From positions 156,364,001 through 156,428,000 of the forward strand of contig OX597816.1 of NCBI GenBank assembly GCA_951406725.2: a DNA stretch of 64,000 nucleotides, in the 5' to 3' direction. Numbering within the stretch: the first letter of the stretch is position 1; every line of letters starts with the position of its first letter. The translations under genes were made by a program, and so were the position numbers. This document shows positions 3,159 to 63,840 of the stretch, in pieces. Source of the stretch: Octopus vulgaris. Taxonomy: Eukaryota. The notes below the pieces were generated by a model. The model had not been told where the DNA came from and ran no database searches. It worked only from the letters and a program-made list of their open reading frames with translations.

Positions 3159-4649
3159 TGGTATGCGCTTATAATTGTGGGGGAGGATAGAGCTATTTTT
3201 AAATGAGTTACTAAATGGTTTAAACTCTATGTGAATATCCATTATCTCTCAAGCATATCTAATATATCCTTAAGTATACAGGAAAACATTCAACTAAATA
3301 TATTCATCTTGACACATATATACACATATATTTGTAATACTATATATATATATATATACAAAAACATATAATATAGTATGATATATACATATGTGAGAAT
3401 GAGAGAGAGAGATTAAAAAAAGACAGCAAGGCATTTCTTAGATCAATATTCACTAAAAACTATTATAAATGGCTACACATGCATGGAGATAATAAAAGCC
3501 TATATTGTTATAAAGCGTTCGTTGTAAAATTCCGTATGAAGAATTATGCTTTGTTTCACCACGATGATCGAAGTATTACAAGAAACTTATTGAATAAAAG
3601 AAACACTTTTAGAATATCAGAAAACACAAATATACAAATAATTTAGTAGTCTAAACCATACAACACAACACAGAAGCAAATTAAACACAATACATACGAC
3701 AGACATAACATCCAGTAAAAACAACACATAAAAAGCATAGCACCAGACAAATTTACTCTGGCTATTGAATAAATGAACACATTATAAAAAAATGACATCA
3801 AACAGAACATGAGGACCATTAAATCCATTCATAAGCTACCATTAATAATATACAGCAAATATACAAAAAATTGAAAGTATTCTCATTAATAACAAAAAGC
3901 AAGATTGAAAGCCACTGAATAAATACTAGGTGATCAATGTAAATTAGAAAATAGTATGCAAATATACAATTTGTAAATTAAGCATGCTTTTATGAAGTGC
4001 AATTTTTCTATAGTCAGAAGAAGGGGAGCAGCGTCAAGGTATCCTGTAGGTGAAAAGCGACAAATGAATTACAAATCGTACATTTTCCGTGGACTAAAGA
4101 CCTGGTATGAATACCTACAGATAAATATGTCTCATCTAAAGTGGCCTAAAACCTAGGTACTGGTTGTATAAAGGGTGCCAAATCACAACTTGAAATAATA
4201 GTAGAGAAACATTAGTAGGTAGGACAACTATCAAATATAAAATTCTCATCCTTTCCGACAAATTTAGATTTTTGGTCATGGAAAATATACAAATAATATA
4301 AGTTACAACGCGAAACATGGCATACATTGAGTGTATCGTAGCAACAAGAGCATCTGTGTGAATTGTGGGAGAGCTTGATGTATGCAAATATGAATGCATG
4401 TCGTATGTGTGTGCATGCGTGTATGCGTGTATGTGTATGTGTGTACGTGTGTATGTGTATGCTTCTCTGTAAGTACATATGTATATGTTCAAGTATGTCT
4501 GTCTAATTTTCTTGAGTGCAAATTCGTTGTTTCACAGACGCTTGTGTAATTTCGAATTCGCTGTCAAAATAATTATAAGAAAAATGGCTAAAAATGACTG
4601 AGCCCCTTATCCAGATAATGTCTAATGTTTCATAGTAATGAAACAGTAC

Positions 4650-26281: not shown

Positions 26282-28191
26282 GTGTTATCATGTACATTGT
26301 TTTGTCTTGGTATAAAAAATAGGCTACAGCAAATATTCTGCTCAATACCACAGATTTGCTTGTCAGTTGTTTGACCTTAATCAGTTGACCATGTCCCTTA
26401 GTGGCTGACGATATGTGCATCTCTGATCACGAGCAGAAGTAGTGGGGGGGGGGCATCATAGCCGTGTGTTAAAAGGAATTCTTGGAGGTTTTGATAATTC
26501 ACATTTCGAAACATGGGTGGTTCGTTCAACGTCCTTAAACAATCCTTATTCAGGGATCTTTTGAGCAGGATGGGCTACTCGACCAGAAGAAAATTCTAAC
26601 TGGGCCACACTAAAACTCCATATTATTGTGAATGGTTATGGCTGCTACCATACTGTTGGTTCTTATTTCTTAGCCTCGGAGTGATCTTCCGACGGATATC
26701 ATTATTCAGTTTCCTTAGCTACAACATCATATGATGACATTTTCGGACAACTGCCTATGATGTGGCTGATATCTTCGGTGTTAACTCCACAAAATCTTCA
26801 TCAGTTGTCATATTTTACTGCTTTTCCTGCATGTCTATCCTTGCATCAGGCATTTGGTTCATATATCTTGTTCTTGGATTGTATGAATGTATGTACGTAT
26901 GTATGTACTATGTATGCATGTATGTGTGTATGTAAGTATGTGTGTATGTATGTGTATATGTATACATGTATGTATGTATGTTTATGTATGTGTGTGTGTG
27001 CTTGTATACTATGCGTACAAGAGCGTTTGACGTATGAGAATATATTAATAACTTCAGCTCCTCATTGTTACATGGACATTTTTGGTATGGACGTTTTTCT
27101 CTAGATATACGAAGCTTAAAACGTAGAAGGCTTGCGGCTAGAACCTAGGATTAAAGTGCATAAACTCTTTTACATTTCATAAATCACTCTCACCATAATT
27201 TTGAGAGTCTATTTTGATTAGCTAATGAAACCATTCTACTCAACGAGTTTGAAATCTTCGGTTATGAGTTATGTTCTTCAGATGAATATGAAAATGAAGG
27301 TTTTAACAGATGTTGATTTTTGTGATTTGAAGTTATTGTATTTTTCAACGCTGCCGAAGTTTCGATATGTTATTCAGTGCAAAGAAAATCTAAATGCATG
27401 ACTATTGATAAAGAAAAAGCCGCCTGCCATTTATTCCAACGAATGCTTACAACTGACAGATATCAGGTATTCAAGTACTTTGGAGCCAATGTTGCTGACA
27501 GTAAGAAACATTTTTGACCTGGAGTTCTTATAACAAGCTTCAAAACGGTTTGCAATTACCTGGTTTAAAGTCAATAAGGATGCTCTTCGTCAGGGCATGT
27601 GTAGATAGCATTTTTCTCTCTGGGAAAAGAACCTCAAGAAGGAGAAAGAAGTGTTTCAAGTACACCATGAAACGCCAATTGTCTGTGAGTTTCTTTGCTG
27701 CTTTCTCGTTTTCTCACTTTCACATGCACGCACACAATGACACAGACATACATACACATGCATACACACACACATACACACAAACACACGCTTACAAACA
27801 CACTTACAAACGTACTAACATAAGTAGACGTATAAACATATCTGCATGAAAATCTATATATGTAAGTATATCCATAAGTATTTATGTGTATGCATGTGCT
27901 TACGTATGTATGTATGTATGTATGTATGTATGTATGTATGTATGTATGTATGTATGTATGTTTAAGACCGTGACCTGTTCACTGACATAATTCCATGCTA
28001 CACGGAATTGTGTCAGTGAAAAGGTCACGGTCTCAAAGAGACGAAAATATTTTGGCAACTTAAATTGAAATGTTGAAGTGTATCTAACGGTTTTTATGTG
28101 TTTCTTAAATGGCATATAAAAGCCTTCCATGCTGCAATTGTTTTCGTTCCAGCACATGATCTCAGATCAGGTCACTTGCTATGCAAGTACA

Positions 28192-29325: not shown

Positions 29326-29877
29326 ACAATAATGTAAACAGCAAAGCCACCCTAAACCCTATATGTATGACCTATTTTTCTCTTCTTCTTCTATACACCA
29401 CGATAGTAATAAACTAGTTTCCTACGAAGCCTCTACTTCATTTCATTCTCTATCCCATGACAGAGAATGACGTAGATCTATACTCGTGTAATAAAGAATT
29501 CGACGATAATGTTTAAAGCTATACATGTCATAATCTGTGTGTATGTGTGTGTATGTGTATGTGTGTGCATGTGTACATACATAAACACAGACACATTTAT
29601 TTATACTATTTTATTGCAGCTGCAAAAAAAAAACCACCTAAAAACAGATCAAACTAACATACGGAGTTTCACGCAACTGTTCATCAGATTGCTGTGATAA
29701 CTCAAACTGATACGTATCAATCTGAATTATCAAGACCATCTGATTACGTGAAACTTCGTGTATCAGTTGGATAATGCTCTTTTTTCTTTTCCTTTTATTT
29801 TCTCAACGTTTGGTATTTGAGCAATATTTTTTCAACAATTTTTTTTATTTGCACCTATGTGTATACTTGTGTGTGCC

Positions 29878-30076: not shown

Positions 30077-30370
<294 letters not shown>

Positions 30371-30730: not shown

Positions 30731-31097
30731 CGATAATATATATATATATGTTATATGTTTTATTTTGAGCGAGATAGACATAACATTTGAATGTTTTGAA
30801 GAAATCTATTTTTGATTACATTCAAAGCAAAACTGGAAAAGTTTGACTTATTACATGTGCTCTCATTACAAGGTGGGATTTTAAAAGTTATATATGTACA
30901 AAACAATGTATAAAAACTGCTATCCGTAATTCTTCAGGCAAATATTCAAAGATAACATTACTATCTTATTACTATTTTTCTGAAGAATTACTGATGGCAG
31001 ATTCTATACATATTTTTGGTACATGTATACCATTGTAACTCCTATCGTGTAATGTACACATATGTATATACATAAATGCATACAATACATACACGCG

Positions 31098-34491: not shown

Positions 34492-34622
34492 GAGATAGTG
34501 AGAGAGAGAGAATATACACAACATATGTTTATGTCAAAAAATCATAAAAGTTACATGATCTTAATTATGAAACGCTTCTTTTTTGCATGCAAATGAATGA
34601 ATTTTATAAGTGTGTAACTTAC

Positions 34623-35240
34623 CTTAAATAGTCTGAGAATGTTGGCTACCATAATGGAGACCAGGCTGGAGGCAGCCCCTATAACCCCCACGACTGATGT
34701 CTTTGGGGAATACTTTGGGGGGCTTCCGTCAGTACAGGTGTAGTCCATTGTGTTTAAGTTCCTTGCACGGATAAAATCCATCGATTGCTCCAACGCGTAA
34801 GTGTCAAAGCTGCATGTATCTAGAATGTGCACACCGACTGAAATATTTGGTAGCAAATAATTGTCTTTGTTAATCCTGTCCACGGCGAATAACATCGCTT
34901 CCATTCTTTGGATCCCTTTCTCTTTTTTTATACTGCCACAAGATTTACCATCTTGTCCCTTTTCGTGCATCGGGAACAGCCCACCGAACACAACCTGGCC
35001 GTCGATGCGAATTTTCTTCTCAGTTTCATATTTGCTACCCCCGACCCCTTCGTAAGAAGTAGTAGTGGACCGGGAATGGCCGGAATCGCCCAAAGTTACT
35101 GAGGACAGTGTTGCTAATAGAAGTCCGCAATAGCAGTAGTAGAAGAACGAGTAGAAAGGAAATGCATAAAAGGCGCATTGTGGCGAGTTGGACGCTGAAG
35201 CGATCGTGCAGACAGCCGTTGTGCTTCGCATACCAAACAT
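34623..35240 (-). CDS. GRM: First coding exon of a metabotropic glutamate receptor (class C GPCR, group III / GRM4-7-8-like): signal peptide plus N-terminal Venus-flytrap domain, 206 codons, phase-0 intron follows
   Basis: The translation contains [70 protein letters not shown] and [24 protein letters not shown]. These are hallmark mGluR motifs; [13 protein letters not shown] and [11 protein letters not shown] are typical of group III. ATG is at 35240 with an in-frame TGA 6 codons upstream, followed by a hydrophobic N-terminal stretch. The donor AAG|GTAAGT at 34623/34622 sits where vertebrate group III genes splice before IPQISYAS. Confidence 0.95.
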
Positions 35241-35984
<744 letters not shown>

Positions 35985-45381: not shown

Positions 45382-45896
45382 CCGCAGAAGCAGCAGCATC
45401 AATGATGTCTTTATCGCCTTCACGATCGCCATCTGATTGTAGTACGACAGCCATTACCCACTTCCCCCGTCTCCACCAATGATGCTGCAGTCGACGTTGT
45501 CGTCGTGGTCGTGGTGCTTCCGATGACCTACTTTTTTTTTTTTTTTTGCCTCATTGACATTGTAAACATTTTAAGACTTCTAAAATAGATTTTCGAAGAT
45601 TAAGATAATCTGGAACAGTTCCTCCAACCCTCCCCTATGAAGTATTCGAATTATTTCTGTTATTTAATTTTTTTTTATTCCCCATACAGAAAACATGAAT
45701 GTATATTTTGTTTAGGGACAAACTTTACCAGTTTTCTAAATTCCTATACGCACAGACACGTGCTCGCCACATATACATACACGTTCAGAAAAACTTAAAT
45801 GCATTAAGAAAACACTTGGACATTCATTCATACTCACATATATTCAGGCACACATCTTGATATATGAACACAATTGTACTAATGAAAGTACATGTA

Positions 45897-45978
<82 letters not shown>

Positions 45979-46116
45979 AATAAATTAATAAATATTCTGT
46001 TGAAGAGTGTAGGCTCGAAGCGTAAAAGACTTTTTCATTTTTCCCGAGCGTCAAAGTAATATACTTGCTTGTTGTGCATACACGTGTCTTCGTGCTTTGT
46101 TTTCTATGAATTTCAG

Positions 46117-46164
<48 letters not shown>

Positions 46165-46207
46165 GTGATTGTGTGTGTGGTTGTATGTCTGTATATGTAT
46201 ATATATA

Positions 46208-46594
46208 TATATGTAAAATAATATGTGACAATTATTCAATAGCCAGGATAACACTCTGAGTTTCGGATGCCGAGGTGAAAATCCACAATACCATCTCTTC
46301 GGTTATCTGGCCATCTGAAAAATTCCTATACGCACAGACACGTGCTCGCACACATATACGTAAACGTTCAGAAAAACTTAAATGCATTAAGAAAATACTT
46401 GGACATTCATTCATACTCATGTGGCCAGATAACCGAAGAGATGGTGTTGTGTATTTCCACCTCGGCACCCGGAACTCAGAGTCTTATTCTGGCTATTGAA
46501 TAATTGTCACATATTATTTGACAGATAAATTTCCTCCATTTACATAATATTGAGGTCTCTTTCTTTCTTTTGTTATCTTAGCGTTTTTACCAAT
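46208..46594. mobile_element. Inverted-repeat element with hammerhead-ribozyme-like arms (Penelope-like terminal-repeat derivative) enclosing a copy of nearby genomic DNA
   Basis: Arms at about 46216-46313 and 46422-46519 are reverse complements (7 differences in ~98 nt). The spacer 46320-46419 duplicates 45738-45836. The element is flanked by (TA)n. Confidence 0.75.
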
Positions 46595-47446
46595 ATAAAT
46601 ATATATATATATATGCATACAGACATACAACCACACACACTCACATATATATATATGCATATACCTGTGTATGTACGTGTGTGTGTGCATGTCTGTCTGT
46701 AAGTATATAGTGAGAGAGAGAGAGAGAGAGTGTTAGAGAGTGAAAGACACGCAGATACATCCATATACATATACTACTGTAAATGCACGCACTGACATGA
46801 ACACACGCGCATGGATTCACATTGTATAGCACTTAACATTGCACACGCTCAATCTCCTAAATTTTACACACAGACAAACACACATGTGCATATGTGTGTG
46901 TGTGTGTGCGCGCGTGCGTATGTGTATATAGATTTCTGTATACACATACGTACAGAAAGTGTAGCGAGCCCTCAAAGGAACAATACACGATATTATACAA
47001 AGCATTATGATCGACCGTTTATTAGGTAGCTTATGAACGATCCTTGGAGTGCTGGCTGTCAGTTTACCAAAATTAATGGTATTCGGAGTTGAAATAATGA
47101 ATTCTACTACAGGTAATGCTATTGCTGCTGCAGCTACTGCCACTGCTGTTGCTTTTACTGAGGATGATAATGATGATGAGTAGAAGGAGGAGGAGAAAGT
47201 GGAAGAGAAACTTGAACAGGAGGCGAAGTTAAAAAGCAGAGATGGAGGACGAGAAGGACATCGTGACGATAATAATAATAATGCTTTCTTTCAAAGATAC
47301 AAAGTCTTAAATACGAGAGGGGAGAATAATCTTAAATTGAAAAGAACCAGCACTTCACTGCTATTTATTTTCTTGACACCGGAAGAAGTAAAGCAATTTA
47401 GGCACCATTGACTTTAGAAAAGTGTCACAGAAACCATGTACTCTCC

Positions 47447-61841: not shown

Positions 61842-62630
<789 letters not shown>

Positions 62631-63840
62631 TTTATATATATATATATATATATACAACACGTGGAACAATTACAGTATTATTATTATTAGGCGCTCAGGA
62701 AAATGGAAGAAGGAGGGTATGAAGTTTCGAGCGGAGCTCTTCGTCGGAAACATAGGAGAAAGAAAGATCCCGAGACGGGAGGACAGAGGAAAAAAAAAAA
62801 TTGCAGGTAGTCTTCACGAGGTCACATACTATATATATATATATATACATTCATATATAAGCTATTTATAAGGATACAGTTAGCCGGAATCAATGAATAA
62901 TACTCTGAACAATTGAATATAAAGTTCTAAACGTTATGTAAGAGAGTTAACCTCTTGGAAAATCTTATTTGTTTAATTTAAAAACCAATATCATAGAGCG
63001 AGATTATTGTGTTACTGAATGTGTAGCCTAAAAACATTTGGAAAGAAACGTCCAGCTCTTCTAAAAAGTAATTAAAAAATCATAACCATTTAACAAAAGC
63101 TTGCATAGGAAATTGGCGCATACGGGAAAAATAATAACATTTAATATGTAAGAATGCATTACAAAATATTGGATGGGATGGAGAACTCAAGTAAATATGA
63201 ATTATCTGTGATTGCAAACTAGAAAAATAAATTTGAAAAGAAAGACATCTTTCTTGTGAAGTACAAGGAAGGATGTACATAACGAGAAGTAACTGTAAGA
63301 AGTGTTTTAAATATGAAAAATTTAGGTAGTATTAAATATTTTAATAAATAAATGAAGTTACGTGATTATGACACATGATGCTAATGTAAACGATAGCAAA
63401 AAGAATGATACGATGTGACTGGGTGGAGTATTAAAAGATTATCTAAAATATGAACCGTTTATATTATTGAAACCTTGCCTTGGGATTGGAAGACAAAACT
63501 GAGTTAAGTAAAATGCACCGGAACCGCATACATTGATGCACACATATATTTCCCTTCCGGCGCACAAACATGCACACGCACACACATACCTGCACAAGCA
63601 TATACACACATATATTTCTAAGGAAATAGTAAATCGTGTCATCAACGTTTCTCCGTTCATGCGCTTCTTTACAAATGCGTGACGGAGTCAAAGACTGCAG
63701 TGTGTAAACTACGAATGCGCTGTCAACCATTCCTGTCTGAAAATTTACGGAATCCTTCAATGTATTGAGTAAAGGCCTTCAGTCCACACTTCACTGCATC
63801 ACTGTATTTTCATATAATTATAAATAGAAATAAACATATA

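What the first reader, a model, noticed from the sequence alone, without database searches (positions are those of the whole stretch)
45738..46594. Inverted hammerhead-ribozyme arms enclosing a captured copy of neighbouring host DNA
Seen: 46216-46313 and 46422-46519 are ~93% inverted repeats. The ~100-bp spacer (46320-46419) is a same-orientation copy of 45738-45836, about 580 bp upstream (3 substitutions and 1 indel). Read outward, each arm folds like a type I hammerhead: stem I tggccagataa/ttatt(c)ctggcta, a core variant CCGAAGA, a GATG...CATC stem II, GAAAC, a near-palindromic stem III actcagagt, and a GUC triplet. The right arm keeps GUC but has GGAA; the left keeps GAAA but has GUG. The right arm extends ~70 bp further, and the unit sits in (TA)n. 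Known: Penelope-like elements carry minimal hammerheads in their terminal repeats and often form inverted termini. Inference: during insertion the element templated local sequence between its two ribozyme arms. That would be a ribozyme-bracketed local-capture cassette able to give a hairpin RNA whose loop is host sequence. I do not know of this architecture being described as a general mechanism.
Basis: partly seen in the sequence, partly recalled or inferred. Interest (0 to 1): 0.8.

Follow-up and report, generated by a model that had tools for sequence, protein, structure and literature searches.

The report
Penelope pair sealed with local copy
Two short ends of a very abundant, likely Penelope-type jumping gene lie head to head here with a 100-base copy of DNA from 580 bases upstream between them, likely a patch copied while the insertion was being sealed rather than the work of their decayed hammerhead-ribozyme motifs.

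Summary
The arms (46212-46322 minus, 46422-~46595 plus) differ at 8 of 102 positions. The spacer is a 96% direct copy of 45738-45836. In four sequencing runs (four organism labels) the arms are a huge repeat family and the spacer sequence is single-copy, so it is host DNA and not element. Other head-to-head pairs of the family have different junctions, and none of the 12 short inserts shown is this spacer. Filler and arms are about equally diverged (2-4%), with microhomology at both joins, which fits copying at insertion time. The ribozyme part fails: neither arm has a complete hammerhead core, the family majority likely lacks one too, and the joins lie 61-68 nt from the would-be cut sites. 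Head-to-head Penelope pairs, opposite-strand hammerheads, host capture between Penelope repeats and L1 templated insertions are all published. I found no paper on a nearby copy placed between inverted Penelope arms. The filler junctions are not confirmed in reads, and no genome-wide capture rate could be measured. Verdict: a real insertion scar, a new variant of a known kind.

The parts
45738..45839 (+). Source of the filler: unique host sequence, 372 nt left of the insertion point
   Evidence: one contig per run at single-copy depth, whose length fits this locus between the (AAT)n and (TATC)n tracts
45897..45976 (.). (TATC)n microsatellite between the source and the insertion
45979..46116 (+). 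Fragment of a second minimal-hammerhead repeat family (decayed core), ending in (TA)n; 76% alike to 30186-30303
46118..46161 (.). (TA)22 tract
46162..46197 (+). Left flank F (GT-rich), inverted copy of the right flank
46198..46212 (.). (TA)n at the 3' end of the left arm: left half of the likely target
46212..46322 (-). Left arm: 111-nt fragment of the high-copy family, 5' end inward, proximal 3' end; 2 differences from the family majority
46241..46313 (-). Hammerhead-like motif of the left arm: helix I intact, CCGAAGA (U4C), GAAA intact, GUG at the triplet
46320..46422 (+). Filler: direct copy of 45738-45839 with 3-nt microhomology at the left join and 1-nt (imperfect 4 of 6) at the right join
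46422..46595 (+). Right arm: ~174-nt fragment of the same family, 5' end inward, distal 3' end; 7 differences from the family majority
   Evidence: the 3' end was placed by eye because 46585-46645 was skipped
46422..46494 (+). Hammerhead-like motif of the right arm: CCGAAGA (U4C), GGAA in place of GAAA, A-C mismatch in stem II, GUC
46524..46595 (+). One-sided 3' extension (tail), about 72 nt, the most abundant part of the family
   Evidence: table 2
46599..46614 (.). (TA)8 at the 3' end of the right arm: right half of the likely target
46615..46650 (-). Right flank F', inverted copy of F, followed by another (TA)n

Best explanation
This is a head-to-head pair of short ends of a high-copy, likely Penelope-type retroelement in a (TA)n tract, joined by a 100-nt copy of host DNA from 580 nt upstream that was likely made by a template switch while the two new ends were being sealed. 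Shown: arm orientation, both 3' ends in (TA)n, two different 3' end points, the filler as a local direct copy with microhomology at both joins, and similar divergence of filler and arms. Inferred steps: (1) the element's endonuclease cut both strands in (TA)n; (2) each free 3' end primed reverse transcription, at one of two start sites about 72 nt apart; (3) both cDNAs stopped just 5' of helix I; (4) one cDNA end annealed by 1-3 nt to the resected left flank, copied about 100 nt, let go and annealed to the other cDNA end. Whether the RT or a repair polymerase such as Pol theta did step 4 cannot be told. The hammerhead-like motifs are likely passive relics, and the unit is likely a dead scar with no function.
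For: Summed arm depth peaks at 16,000-99,000 times the spacer's depth in 4 of 4 runs, while one contig per run lies on the spacer (this is not a copy number). Family joints number 45, with 15 shown; 14 of the 15 run from left arm to right arm at varied places. Inserts number 29, with 12 shown, 1-39 nt long, and none is this spacer. Divergence: filler vs source 4/100, left arm vs family majority 2/111, right arm 7/164, with overlapping intervals. The filler has the extra A at 46350 that the source carries in organism D (X5: 0 gaps) but lacks in the window and in X1, X2 and X4, so it is likely an old real copy. Microhomology of 3 nt or more has a chance of 0.02-0.07. Two more head-to-head pairs with hammerhead-type core boxes lie in the window. 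Literature: purified PAc protein cuts and extends both strands, starts at two internal sites and does not need ribozyme cleavage (PMC11167929). An inverted 5'-truncated partner and a one-sided tail are typical of PLEs (PMC8557442). L1 insertions take up nearby templates (10.1101/2024.08.27.596794; PMC11702581).
Against: No RT or GIY-YIG gene was tied to the family (Pfam on 31 ORFs; no genome), so 'Penelope' rests on architecture. The filler is longer than typical Pol theta inserts (<25 bp, PMC12426944) and its source is further away than in most L1 cases (within 15 bp). The distance is 372 nt now, about 260 of it simple repeats and a second repeat fragment that may be younger or older. The microhomologies are short. 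The tail is about 72 nt against the 30-40 described. The model does not by itself explain the inverted flanks F/F'. Arkhipova et al. explain head-to-head pairs by self-priming instead. The filler junctions have no independent read support.
Confidence: 0.65

Rival explanations
1. Local capture is a regular, element-encoded step: the Penelope RT jumps from its RNA onto nearby DNA, or onto a nascent minus-strand transcript of the locus, to bridge its two cDNAs. A sizeable share of inverted pairs would then hold a copy of their own neighbourhood.
For: Every feature of this locus fits. One shown junction holds a 36-nt insert that does not look element-derived (table 5c, X1; origin not traceable). 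A glutamate-receptor-like exon on the minus strand 11 kb away makes a minus-strand transcript over this region possible. Two unchecked AI notes from other genomes describe the same layout (leads only). Host DNA between pLTRs is reported in Adineta.
Against: Of 12 inserts shown, 5 are 1-2 nt and several look like diverged element sequence; none of the 15 joints shown is marked as holding more than 40 letters (9 are 'not known'). 0 of 2 other head-to-head pairs in the window has a local filler. For L1 the rate is 22 of about 3,600 insertions.
Confidence: 0.17
2. One cDNA was folded back and copied (self-priming or snap-back), and the same event duplicated flank F in inverted form. The filler is the loop of the fold-back, and one side later lost or never gained the 72-nt tail.
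For: The inversion extends about 45 nt into the flanks, which is rare in this window. Self-priming is the published proposal for head-to-head pLTRs. The arms' 5' ends lie only 9 nt apart.
Against: The arms share no private difference from the family majority among the sites listed (table 3). The left arm ends cleanly on family sequence at a (TA)n. F and F' differ more than filler and source do, though in microsatellite-like DNA, which would fit a palindrome older than the insertion.
Confidence: 0.1
3. The arms are working hammerheads whose cleavage sets the ends of a mobile cassette that carries host sequence and yields a hairpin RNA.
For: Helix I and the palindromic helix III are in place. 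The left arm folds better than shuffles (z -2.55 over 82 nt). The unit could form a long hairpin (-241 to -251 kcal/mol). U4C hammerheads keep some activity in vivo (PMC3088659). Related contigs read CUGAAGA (tables 5c, 7).
Against: Each arm has at least two core defects, and stem II cannot be closed by a G-C pair next to the core without a bulge. One search lists no other letter at 5% or more at 46252, 46301 or 46434, so the family majority likely reads CCGAAGA and GUG. The joins lie 61-68 nt from the cut sites. In the full hairpin the arms pair with each other and lose the hammerhead fold. The spacer sequence stands at single-copy depth, so the cassette has not spread.
Confidence: 0.04
4. 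The structure is an assembly or read chimera.
For: Inverted PLE structures trouble assemblers, and no read-level check of the joins was possible.
Against: The arms differ at 8 of 102 sites and each has its own differences from the family. The filler differs from its source at 4 of 100 sites, one of them matching the source allele of organism D. A fold-back chimera would give near-identical copies.
Confidence: 0.04

Closest known systems
Insertion units of endonuclease-bearing Penelope-like elements (Craig et al. 2021, PMC8557442; Arkhipova et al. 2013, PMC3846280)
   Same: 5'-truncated copy with an inverted partner head to head, an extension on one end only, and a microsatellite target; in Adineta, host sequence caught between pLTRs.
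   Different: Here the captured piece sits at the inverted junction and is a copy of the insertion site's own neighbourhood. In the Adineta passages read, captured DNA lies between direct or solo pLTRs and no nearby source is stated. The tail is about 72 nt, not 30-40. No ORF was found for this family.
Minimal hammerheads of metazoan PLEs (Cervera and De la Pena 2014, PMC4209133)
   Same: Type I layout, long helix II, short palindromic helix III, and pairs on opposite strands 100-700 bp apart. A CAG preceded by T's abuts helix I in the left arm, recalling the intron end that they map there in D. virilis.
   Different: U4C in both arms, GUG or GGAA defects, and no canonical G10.1-C11.1 register; a likely relic, not a working motif.
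Templated insertions in L1 retrotransposition (10.1101/2024.08.27.596794; PMC11702581)
   Same: Nearby genomic DNA under 250 bp copied into a retroelement insertion as a rare by-product (22 of about 3,600; 3 cases in the second paper).
   Different: L1 templates usually lie within 15 bp of the site, against 372 nt here. The element is PLE-like and head to head.
Pol theta templated insertions (review PMC12426944)
   Same: Flank-templated filler primed and resolved by minimal base pairing.
   Different: Usually under 25 bp, against 100 nt here; the ends joined are inferred cDNAs.
PAc Penelope protein in vitro (Frangieh et al. 2024, PMC11167929)
   Same: Both strands cut and extended at AT-rich DNA, two RT start sites giving the optional tail, and uncleaved RNA used; this matches two arms with different 3' ends that keep the cut site.
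   Different: That work did not address how the 5' ends are joined or any filler.

Membership tests
Penelope-like element (EN+) terminal-repeat fragment | Linked to an ORF with telomerase-like RT and GIY-YIG endonuclease | tested here: inconclusive
   No RT or GIY-YIG among 31 ORFs scanned with Pfam (30 of the 43 listed at 120 aa or more, simple-repeat frames and one other left out, plus one 89-aa frame). No genome to look further; no family hit in public collections.
Penelope-like element (EN+) terminal-repeat fragment | High-copy, dispersed, 5'-truncated copies | tested here: met
   Depth 1e4-1e5 times the single-copy level in 4 of 4 runs, highest in the 3' tail; varied 5' joints
Penelope-like element (EN+) terminal-repeat fragment | Inverted partner at the 5' end (head to head) | tested here: met
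   This locus; 14 of 15 shown joints in other copies run left arm to right arm
Penelope-like element (EN+) terminal-repeat fragment | Optional 30-40-bp tail on one end | tested here: inconclusive
   A one-sided extension is present but about 72 nt long
Penelope-like element (EN+) terminal-repeat fragment | Insertion in microsatellite or AT-rich target | tested here: met
   Both 3' ends abut (TA)n
Penelope-like element (EN+) terminal-repeat fragment | Target-site duplication | tested here: inconclusive
   Hidden by (TA)n; the flanks are inverted, not direct, copies
Type I minimal hammerhead ribozyme | Core C3 U4 G5 A6 N7 G8 A9 | tested here: not met
   CCGAAGA in both arms and likely in the family majority; CUGAAGA only in related contigs
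Type I minimal hammerhead ribozyme | G12 A13 A14 A15.1 and an NUH triplet in the same molecule | tested here: not met
   Left arm GAAA with GUG; right arm GGAA with GUC
Type I minimal hammerhead ribozyme | G10.1-C11.1 closing helix II next to the core | tested here: not met
   The canonical register gives 1 of 4 pairs; GAUG/CAUC leaves an extra C before G12
Type I minimal hammerhead ribozyme | Helix I and palindromic helix III | tested here: met
   Ten pairs plus a bulge in helix I and 4 possible pairs in helix III in both arms
Type I minimal hammerhead ribozyme | Match to an Rfam hammerhead model | tested here: inconclusive
   No hammerhead hit at E<=10, but two canonical-core minimal motifs in the window are missed as well
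Type I minimal hammerhead ribozyme | Self-cleavage | not testable with these tools
   Needs an in vitro assay
Templated insertion (L1- or Pol theta-type) | Insert maps to the flank of its own junction | tested here: met
   96% copy 582 nt upstream, single-copy otherwise
Templated insertion (L1- or Pol theta-type) | Microhomology at both ends | tested here: met
   3 nt left, 1 nt (imperfect 4 of 6) right; weak, chance 0.02-0.07 for the left
Templated insertion (L1- or Pol theta-type) | Typical size and distance (<25 bp for Pol theta; within 15 bp for L1) | tested here: not met
   100 nt, 372 nt from the insertion point
Templated insertion (L1- or Pol theta-type) | Dependence on Pol theta or on the RT | not testable with these tools
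   Needs an insertion assay

The most novel reading that the evidence does not exclude
Penelope-like elements regularly close their two cDNA ends by borrowing a nearby template, leaving both a direct local copy between the arms and an inverted copy of the flank. In a genome with tens of thousands of copies this would be an unrecognised source of short local duplications held as the loop of a long DNA or RNA hairpin, and a direct footprint of the unknown final step of Penelope insertion.
Probability: 0.17. Interest if true: 0.65.

Novelty: new variant of a known kind. Interest (0 to 1): 0.3.

Why it matters
How Penelope-like elements join the 5' ends of their inverted pairs is unresolved (PMC8557442, PMC11167929). 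A junction that kept a local copy shows that a cDNA end was likely free to prime on flanking DNA, which favours two primed ends joined by microhomology over simple self-priming. It also gives a cheap genome-wide test: count fillers that map near their own site. As one old locus with decayed ribozyme motifs it has no likely function and changes little by itself.

Tried and rejected
No genome is held for this window, so the genome-wide count could not be run. Pattern scans for other copies with flanks found nothing usable: viral contigs 0 and 1 hits (the hit L001 is unrelated sequence sharing a short word), metagenome contigs 0 and 0, prokaryote genomes 0. No RNA holder listed. In one search (4 of the 24 runs listed) no contig with the filler's own letters or across its joins was listed: the only contig on the spacer in each run is the source locus, unbroken across the two 31-mers that it shares with the filler. 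This neither confirms nor refutes the filler in those samples. Contigs drop sequence, the tables were cut (30 joints, 17 inserts, 345 loose ends and 8966 pieces not shown), X1 was read to about 80%, and assemblers can prune short low-depth links between very deep repeats (recalled, not tested). It could also mean that the insertion is polymorphic. The flanks were skipped as repeats, so no empty site was seen. Rfam gave no hammerhead hit and also missed control motifs. The microRNA hits are below gathering scores and reflect the hairpin and microsatellites. The first palindrome background was swamped by pure TA matches and was redone with a G/C requirement. A 34-nt match to the arm at 3753-3785, downstream of a frameshifted stretch that recalls a PLE C-terminus from memory, was not confirmed (Pfam none; Atlas best 0.81) and is not used. 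Joints landing at 46422-46424 were not read as clustering at helix I, because the reference arm starts there. 'Spacer is another element fragment' is rejected (single-copy depth). Earlier-finding look-ups by sequence, by place and three by words were empty.

Full report
Setting. The window is microsatellite-rich animal DNA (about 35% GC; 16% tandem repeat). From recall its repeats look octopus-like; no call names the organism. No genome is held. The only clear gene piece is a minus-strand exon at 34554-35255 with an ANF_receptor domain (E=2e-18) whose translation reads like the start of a metabotropic glutamate receptor (label recalled). The locus lies 11 kb on its 5' side.

Observation. The arms 46212-46313 and 46422-46523 are inverted and differ at 8 of 102 positions. 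The spacer matches 45738-45836 in the same orientation with 3 substitutions and 1 indel and has no other full copy in the window. The right arm runs about 72 nt further, and both 3' ends abut (TA)n. New here: the flanks beyond the TA runs are inverted copies with a 24-nt exact core. None of 82 TA tracts in the window has a 16-nt or longer G/C-bearing match of that kind, and 9 of 6406 unrelated flank pairs reach 24 nt, those printed being simple dinucleotide runs apart from this pair.

What the arms are. I laid 46165-46645 on 4 of 24 listed runs, one for each of the organism labels A to D. Summed depth over the arms peaks at 16,000-99,000 times that over the spacer (not a copy number), so the arms belong to a very abundant family, deepest in the tail. 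Loose ends show that family sequence continues to 46322 and then leaves the window's sequence. Of 45 joints, 15 are shown, and 14 of these pass from the left arm to the right arm at different places, so head-to-head pairs recur. Of 29 short inserts, 12 are shown: 1-39 nt, 5 of them 1-2 nt, several element-like, one of 36 nt not element-like, none equal to this spacer. Two further head-to-head pairs with hammerhead-type core boxes, 29648-29772 and 30864-31054, join without a local filler. This matches the published PLE layout of an inverted 5'-truncated partner, a one-sided tail and microsatellite targets (PMC8557442, passages; PMC3846280, passages). Dual minimal hammerheads 100-700 bp apart on opposite strands are also described (PMC4209133, passages and part 2 of 4). 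No RT or endonuclease ORF was tied to the family, so membership is by architecture only.

What the spacer is. In each run exactly one contig lies on the spacer, at single-copy depth and with the source's letters, and its length places it at the source locus. The spacer is therefore host DNA. Organism D's source has the extra A that the filler has and the window's source lacks, which points to an old real copy rather than an artefact. The left join has 3 shared A's. The right join reads TG against the source's CA, which fits one decayed CG, and then a shared T (inference). Filler vs source is 4/100, left arm vs family majority 2/111 and right arm 7/164, with overlapping intervals, so copying at insertion time is likely. 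The filler's own junctions were not confirmed by these contigs (see Tried and rejected).

The ribozyme claim. Helix I and the palindromic helix III are present, but both arms have U4C. The left arm has GUG; the right has GGAA and a stem II mismatch; and helix II has no canonical closing register. table 3 lists no other letter at 5% or more at 46252, 46301 or 46434, places covered at very high depth, so the family majority likely reads CCGAAGA and GUG. At 46483, 91% of the depth laid there in X1 reads T, so the right arm's GUC is not the majority state. Related contigs read CUGAAGA, which suggests descent from a true minimal hammerhead. U4C lowers activity (PMC3088659, passages). Rfam is silent here but also misses control motifs. 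Both arms keep both sides of the would-be cut site and the joins are 61-68 nt from it, in line with PAc, where uncleaved RNA is the main template (PMC11167929, parts 1-2 of 4).

Mechanism. Most likely (0.65): a cut on both strands in (TA)n, reverse transcription from both ends at two start sites, then a brief switch of one cDNA end onto the resected left flank, 100 nt of synthesis and annealing to the other end. The cut, priming and switch are inferred. Nearby templates are known for L1: 22 of about 3,600 insertions, under 250 bp and usually within 15 bp (10.1101/2024.08.27.596794, passages), and 3 cases in PMC11702581 (passages). They are also known for Pol theta, usually under 25 bp (PMC12426944, passages). 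This case is longer than the latter and further than the former. The inverted flanks remain unexplained: either an earlier snap-back palindrome was the target, or a second templated step occurred in the same event. Rivals: a regular element-encoded capture (0.17), fold-back of one cDNA (0.10), an active ribozyme cassette (0.04), an artefact (0.04).

Novelty. Searches of the held library showed no paper describing a copy of the neighbourhood at the inverted junction of a PLE pair. The library lacks most subscription papers, I read listings and passages only, and I opened no supplements. PMC9977147 (passages) and 10.64898/2026.07.22.740005 (passages) added nothing on this point. Two unchecked notes of this scan report the same layout in other genomes; I could not test them, and they are leads only. 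Verdict: real, modestly informative about PLE insertion, a new variant of a known kind; interest 0.3.

Noticed in passing
window 46162-46197 and 46615-46650: The flanks outside the TA runs are inverted copies of each other (24-nt exact core); no TA tract in the window has a comparable palindrome.
   Followed up: partly
window 45979-46116 (+) and 30186-30303 (-): Two fragments of a second minimal-hammerhead family, 76% alike; the one at 30301 has a canonical core, and the other lies between the filler's source and the left arm.
   Followed up: partly
window 29648-29772: Head-to-head pair of a third family; the left arm has a canonical CUGAUGA...GAAAC core, and the join is a short palindrome with no local filler.
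   Followed up: partly
window 30864-31054: Older head-to-head pair (76%) with CUGAAGA boxes and no local filler.
   Followed up: partly
window 62600-62790 (-): Another hammerhead-like motif with a CCGA core variant, ending in (TA)n.
   Followed up: no
window 34554-35255 (-): Exon with an ANF_receptor domain and a signal-peptide-like start, resembling a metabotropic glutamate receptor.
   Followed up: partly
window 3440-3790 (+): Frameshifted stretch that recalls a Penelope endonuclease C-terminus (from memory), followed by a 34-nt match to the arm; Pfam and Atlas gave no support.
   Followed up: partly
window 46314-46322 (-): A T-run plus CAG directly precedes helix I of the left arm, like a 3' splice site; D. 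virilis Penelope has its intron end at helix I.
   Followed up: no
window 27962-28036: 75-nt palindrome (85%) right after a (TATG)n tract.
   Followed up: no
run X1, joint 46309 to 46422: Another head-to-head junction holds a 36-nt insert that does not look element-derived; its origin could not be traced.
   Followed up: no
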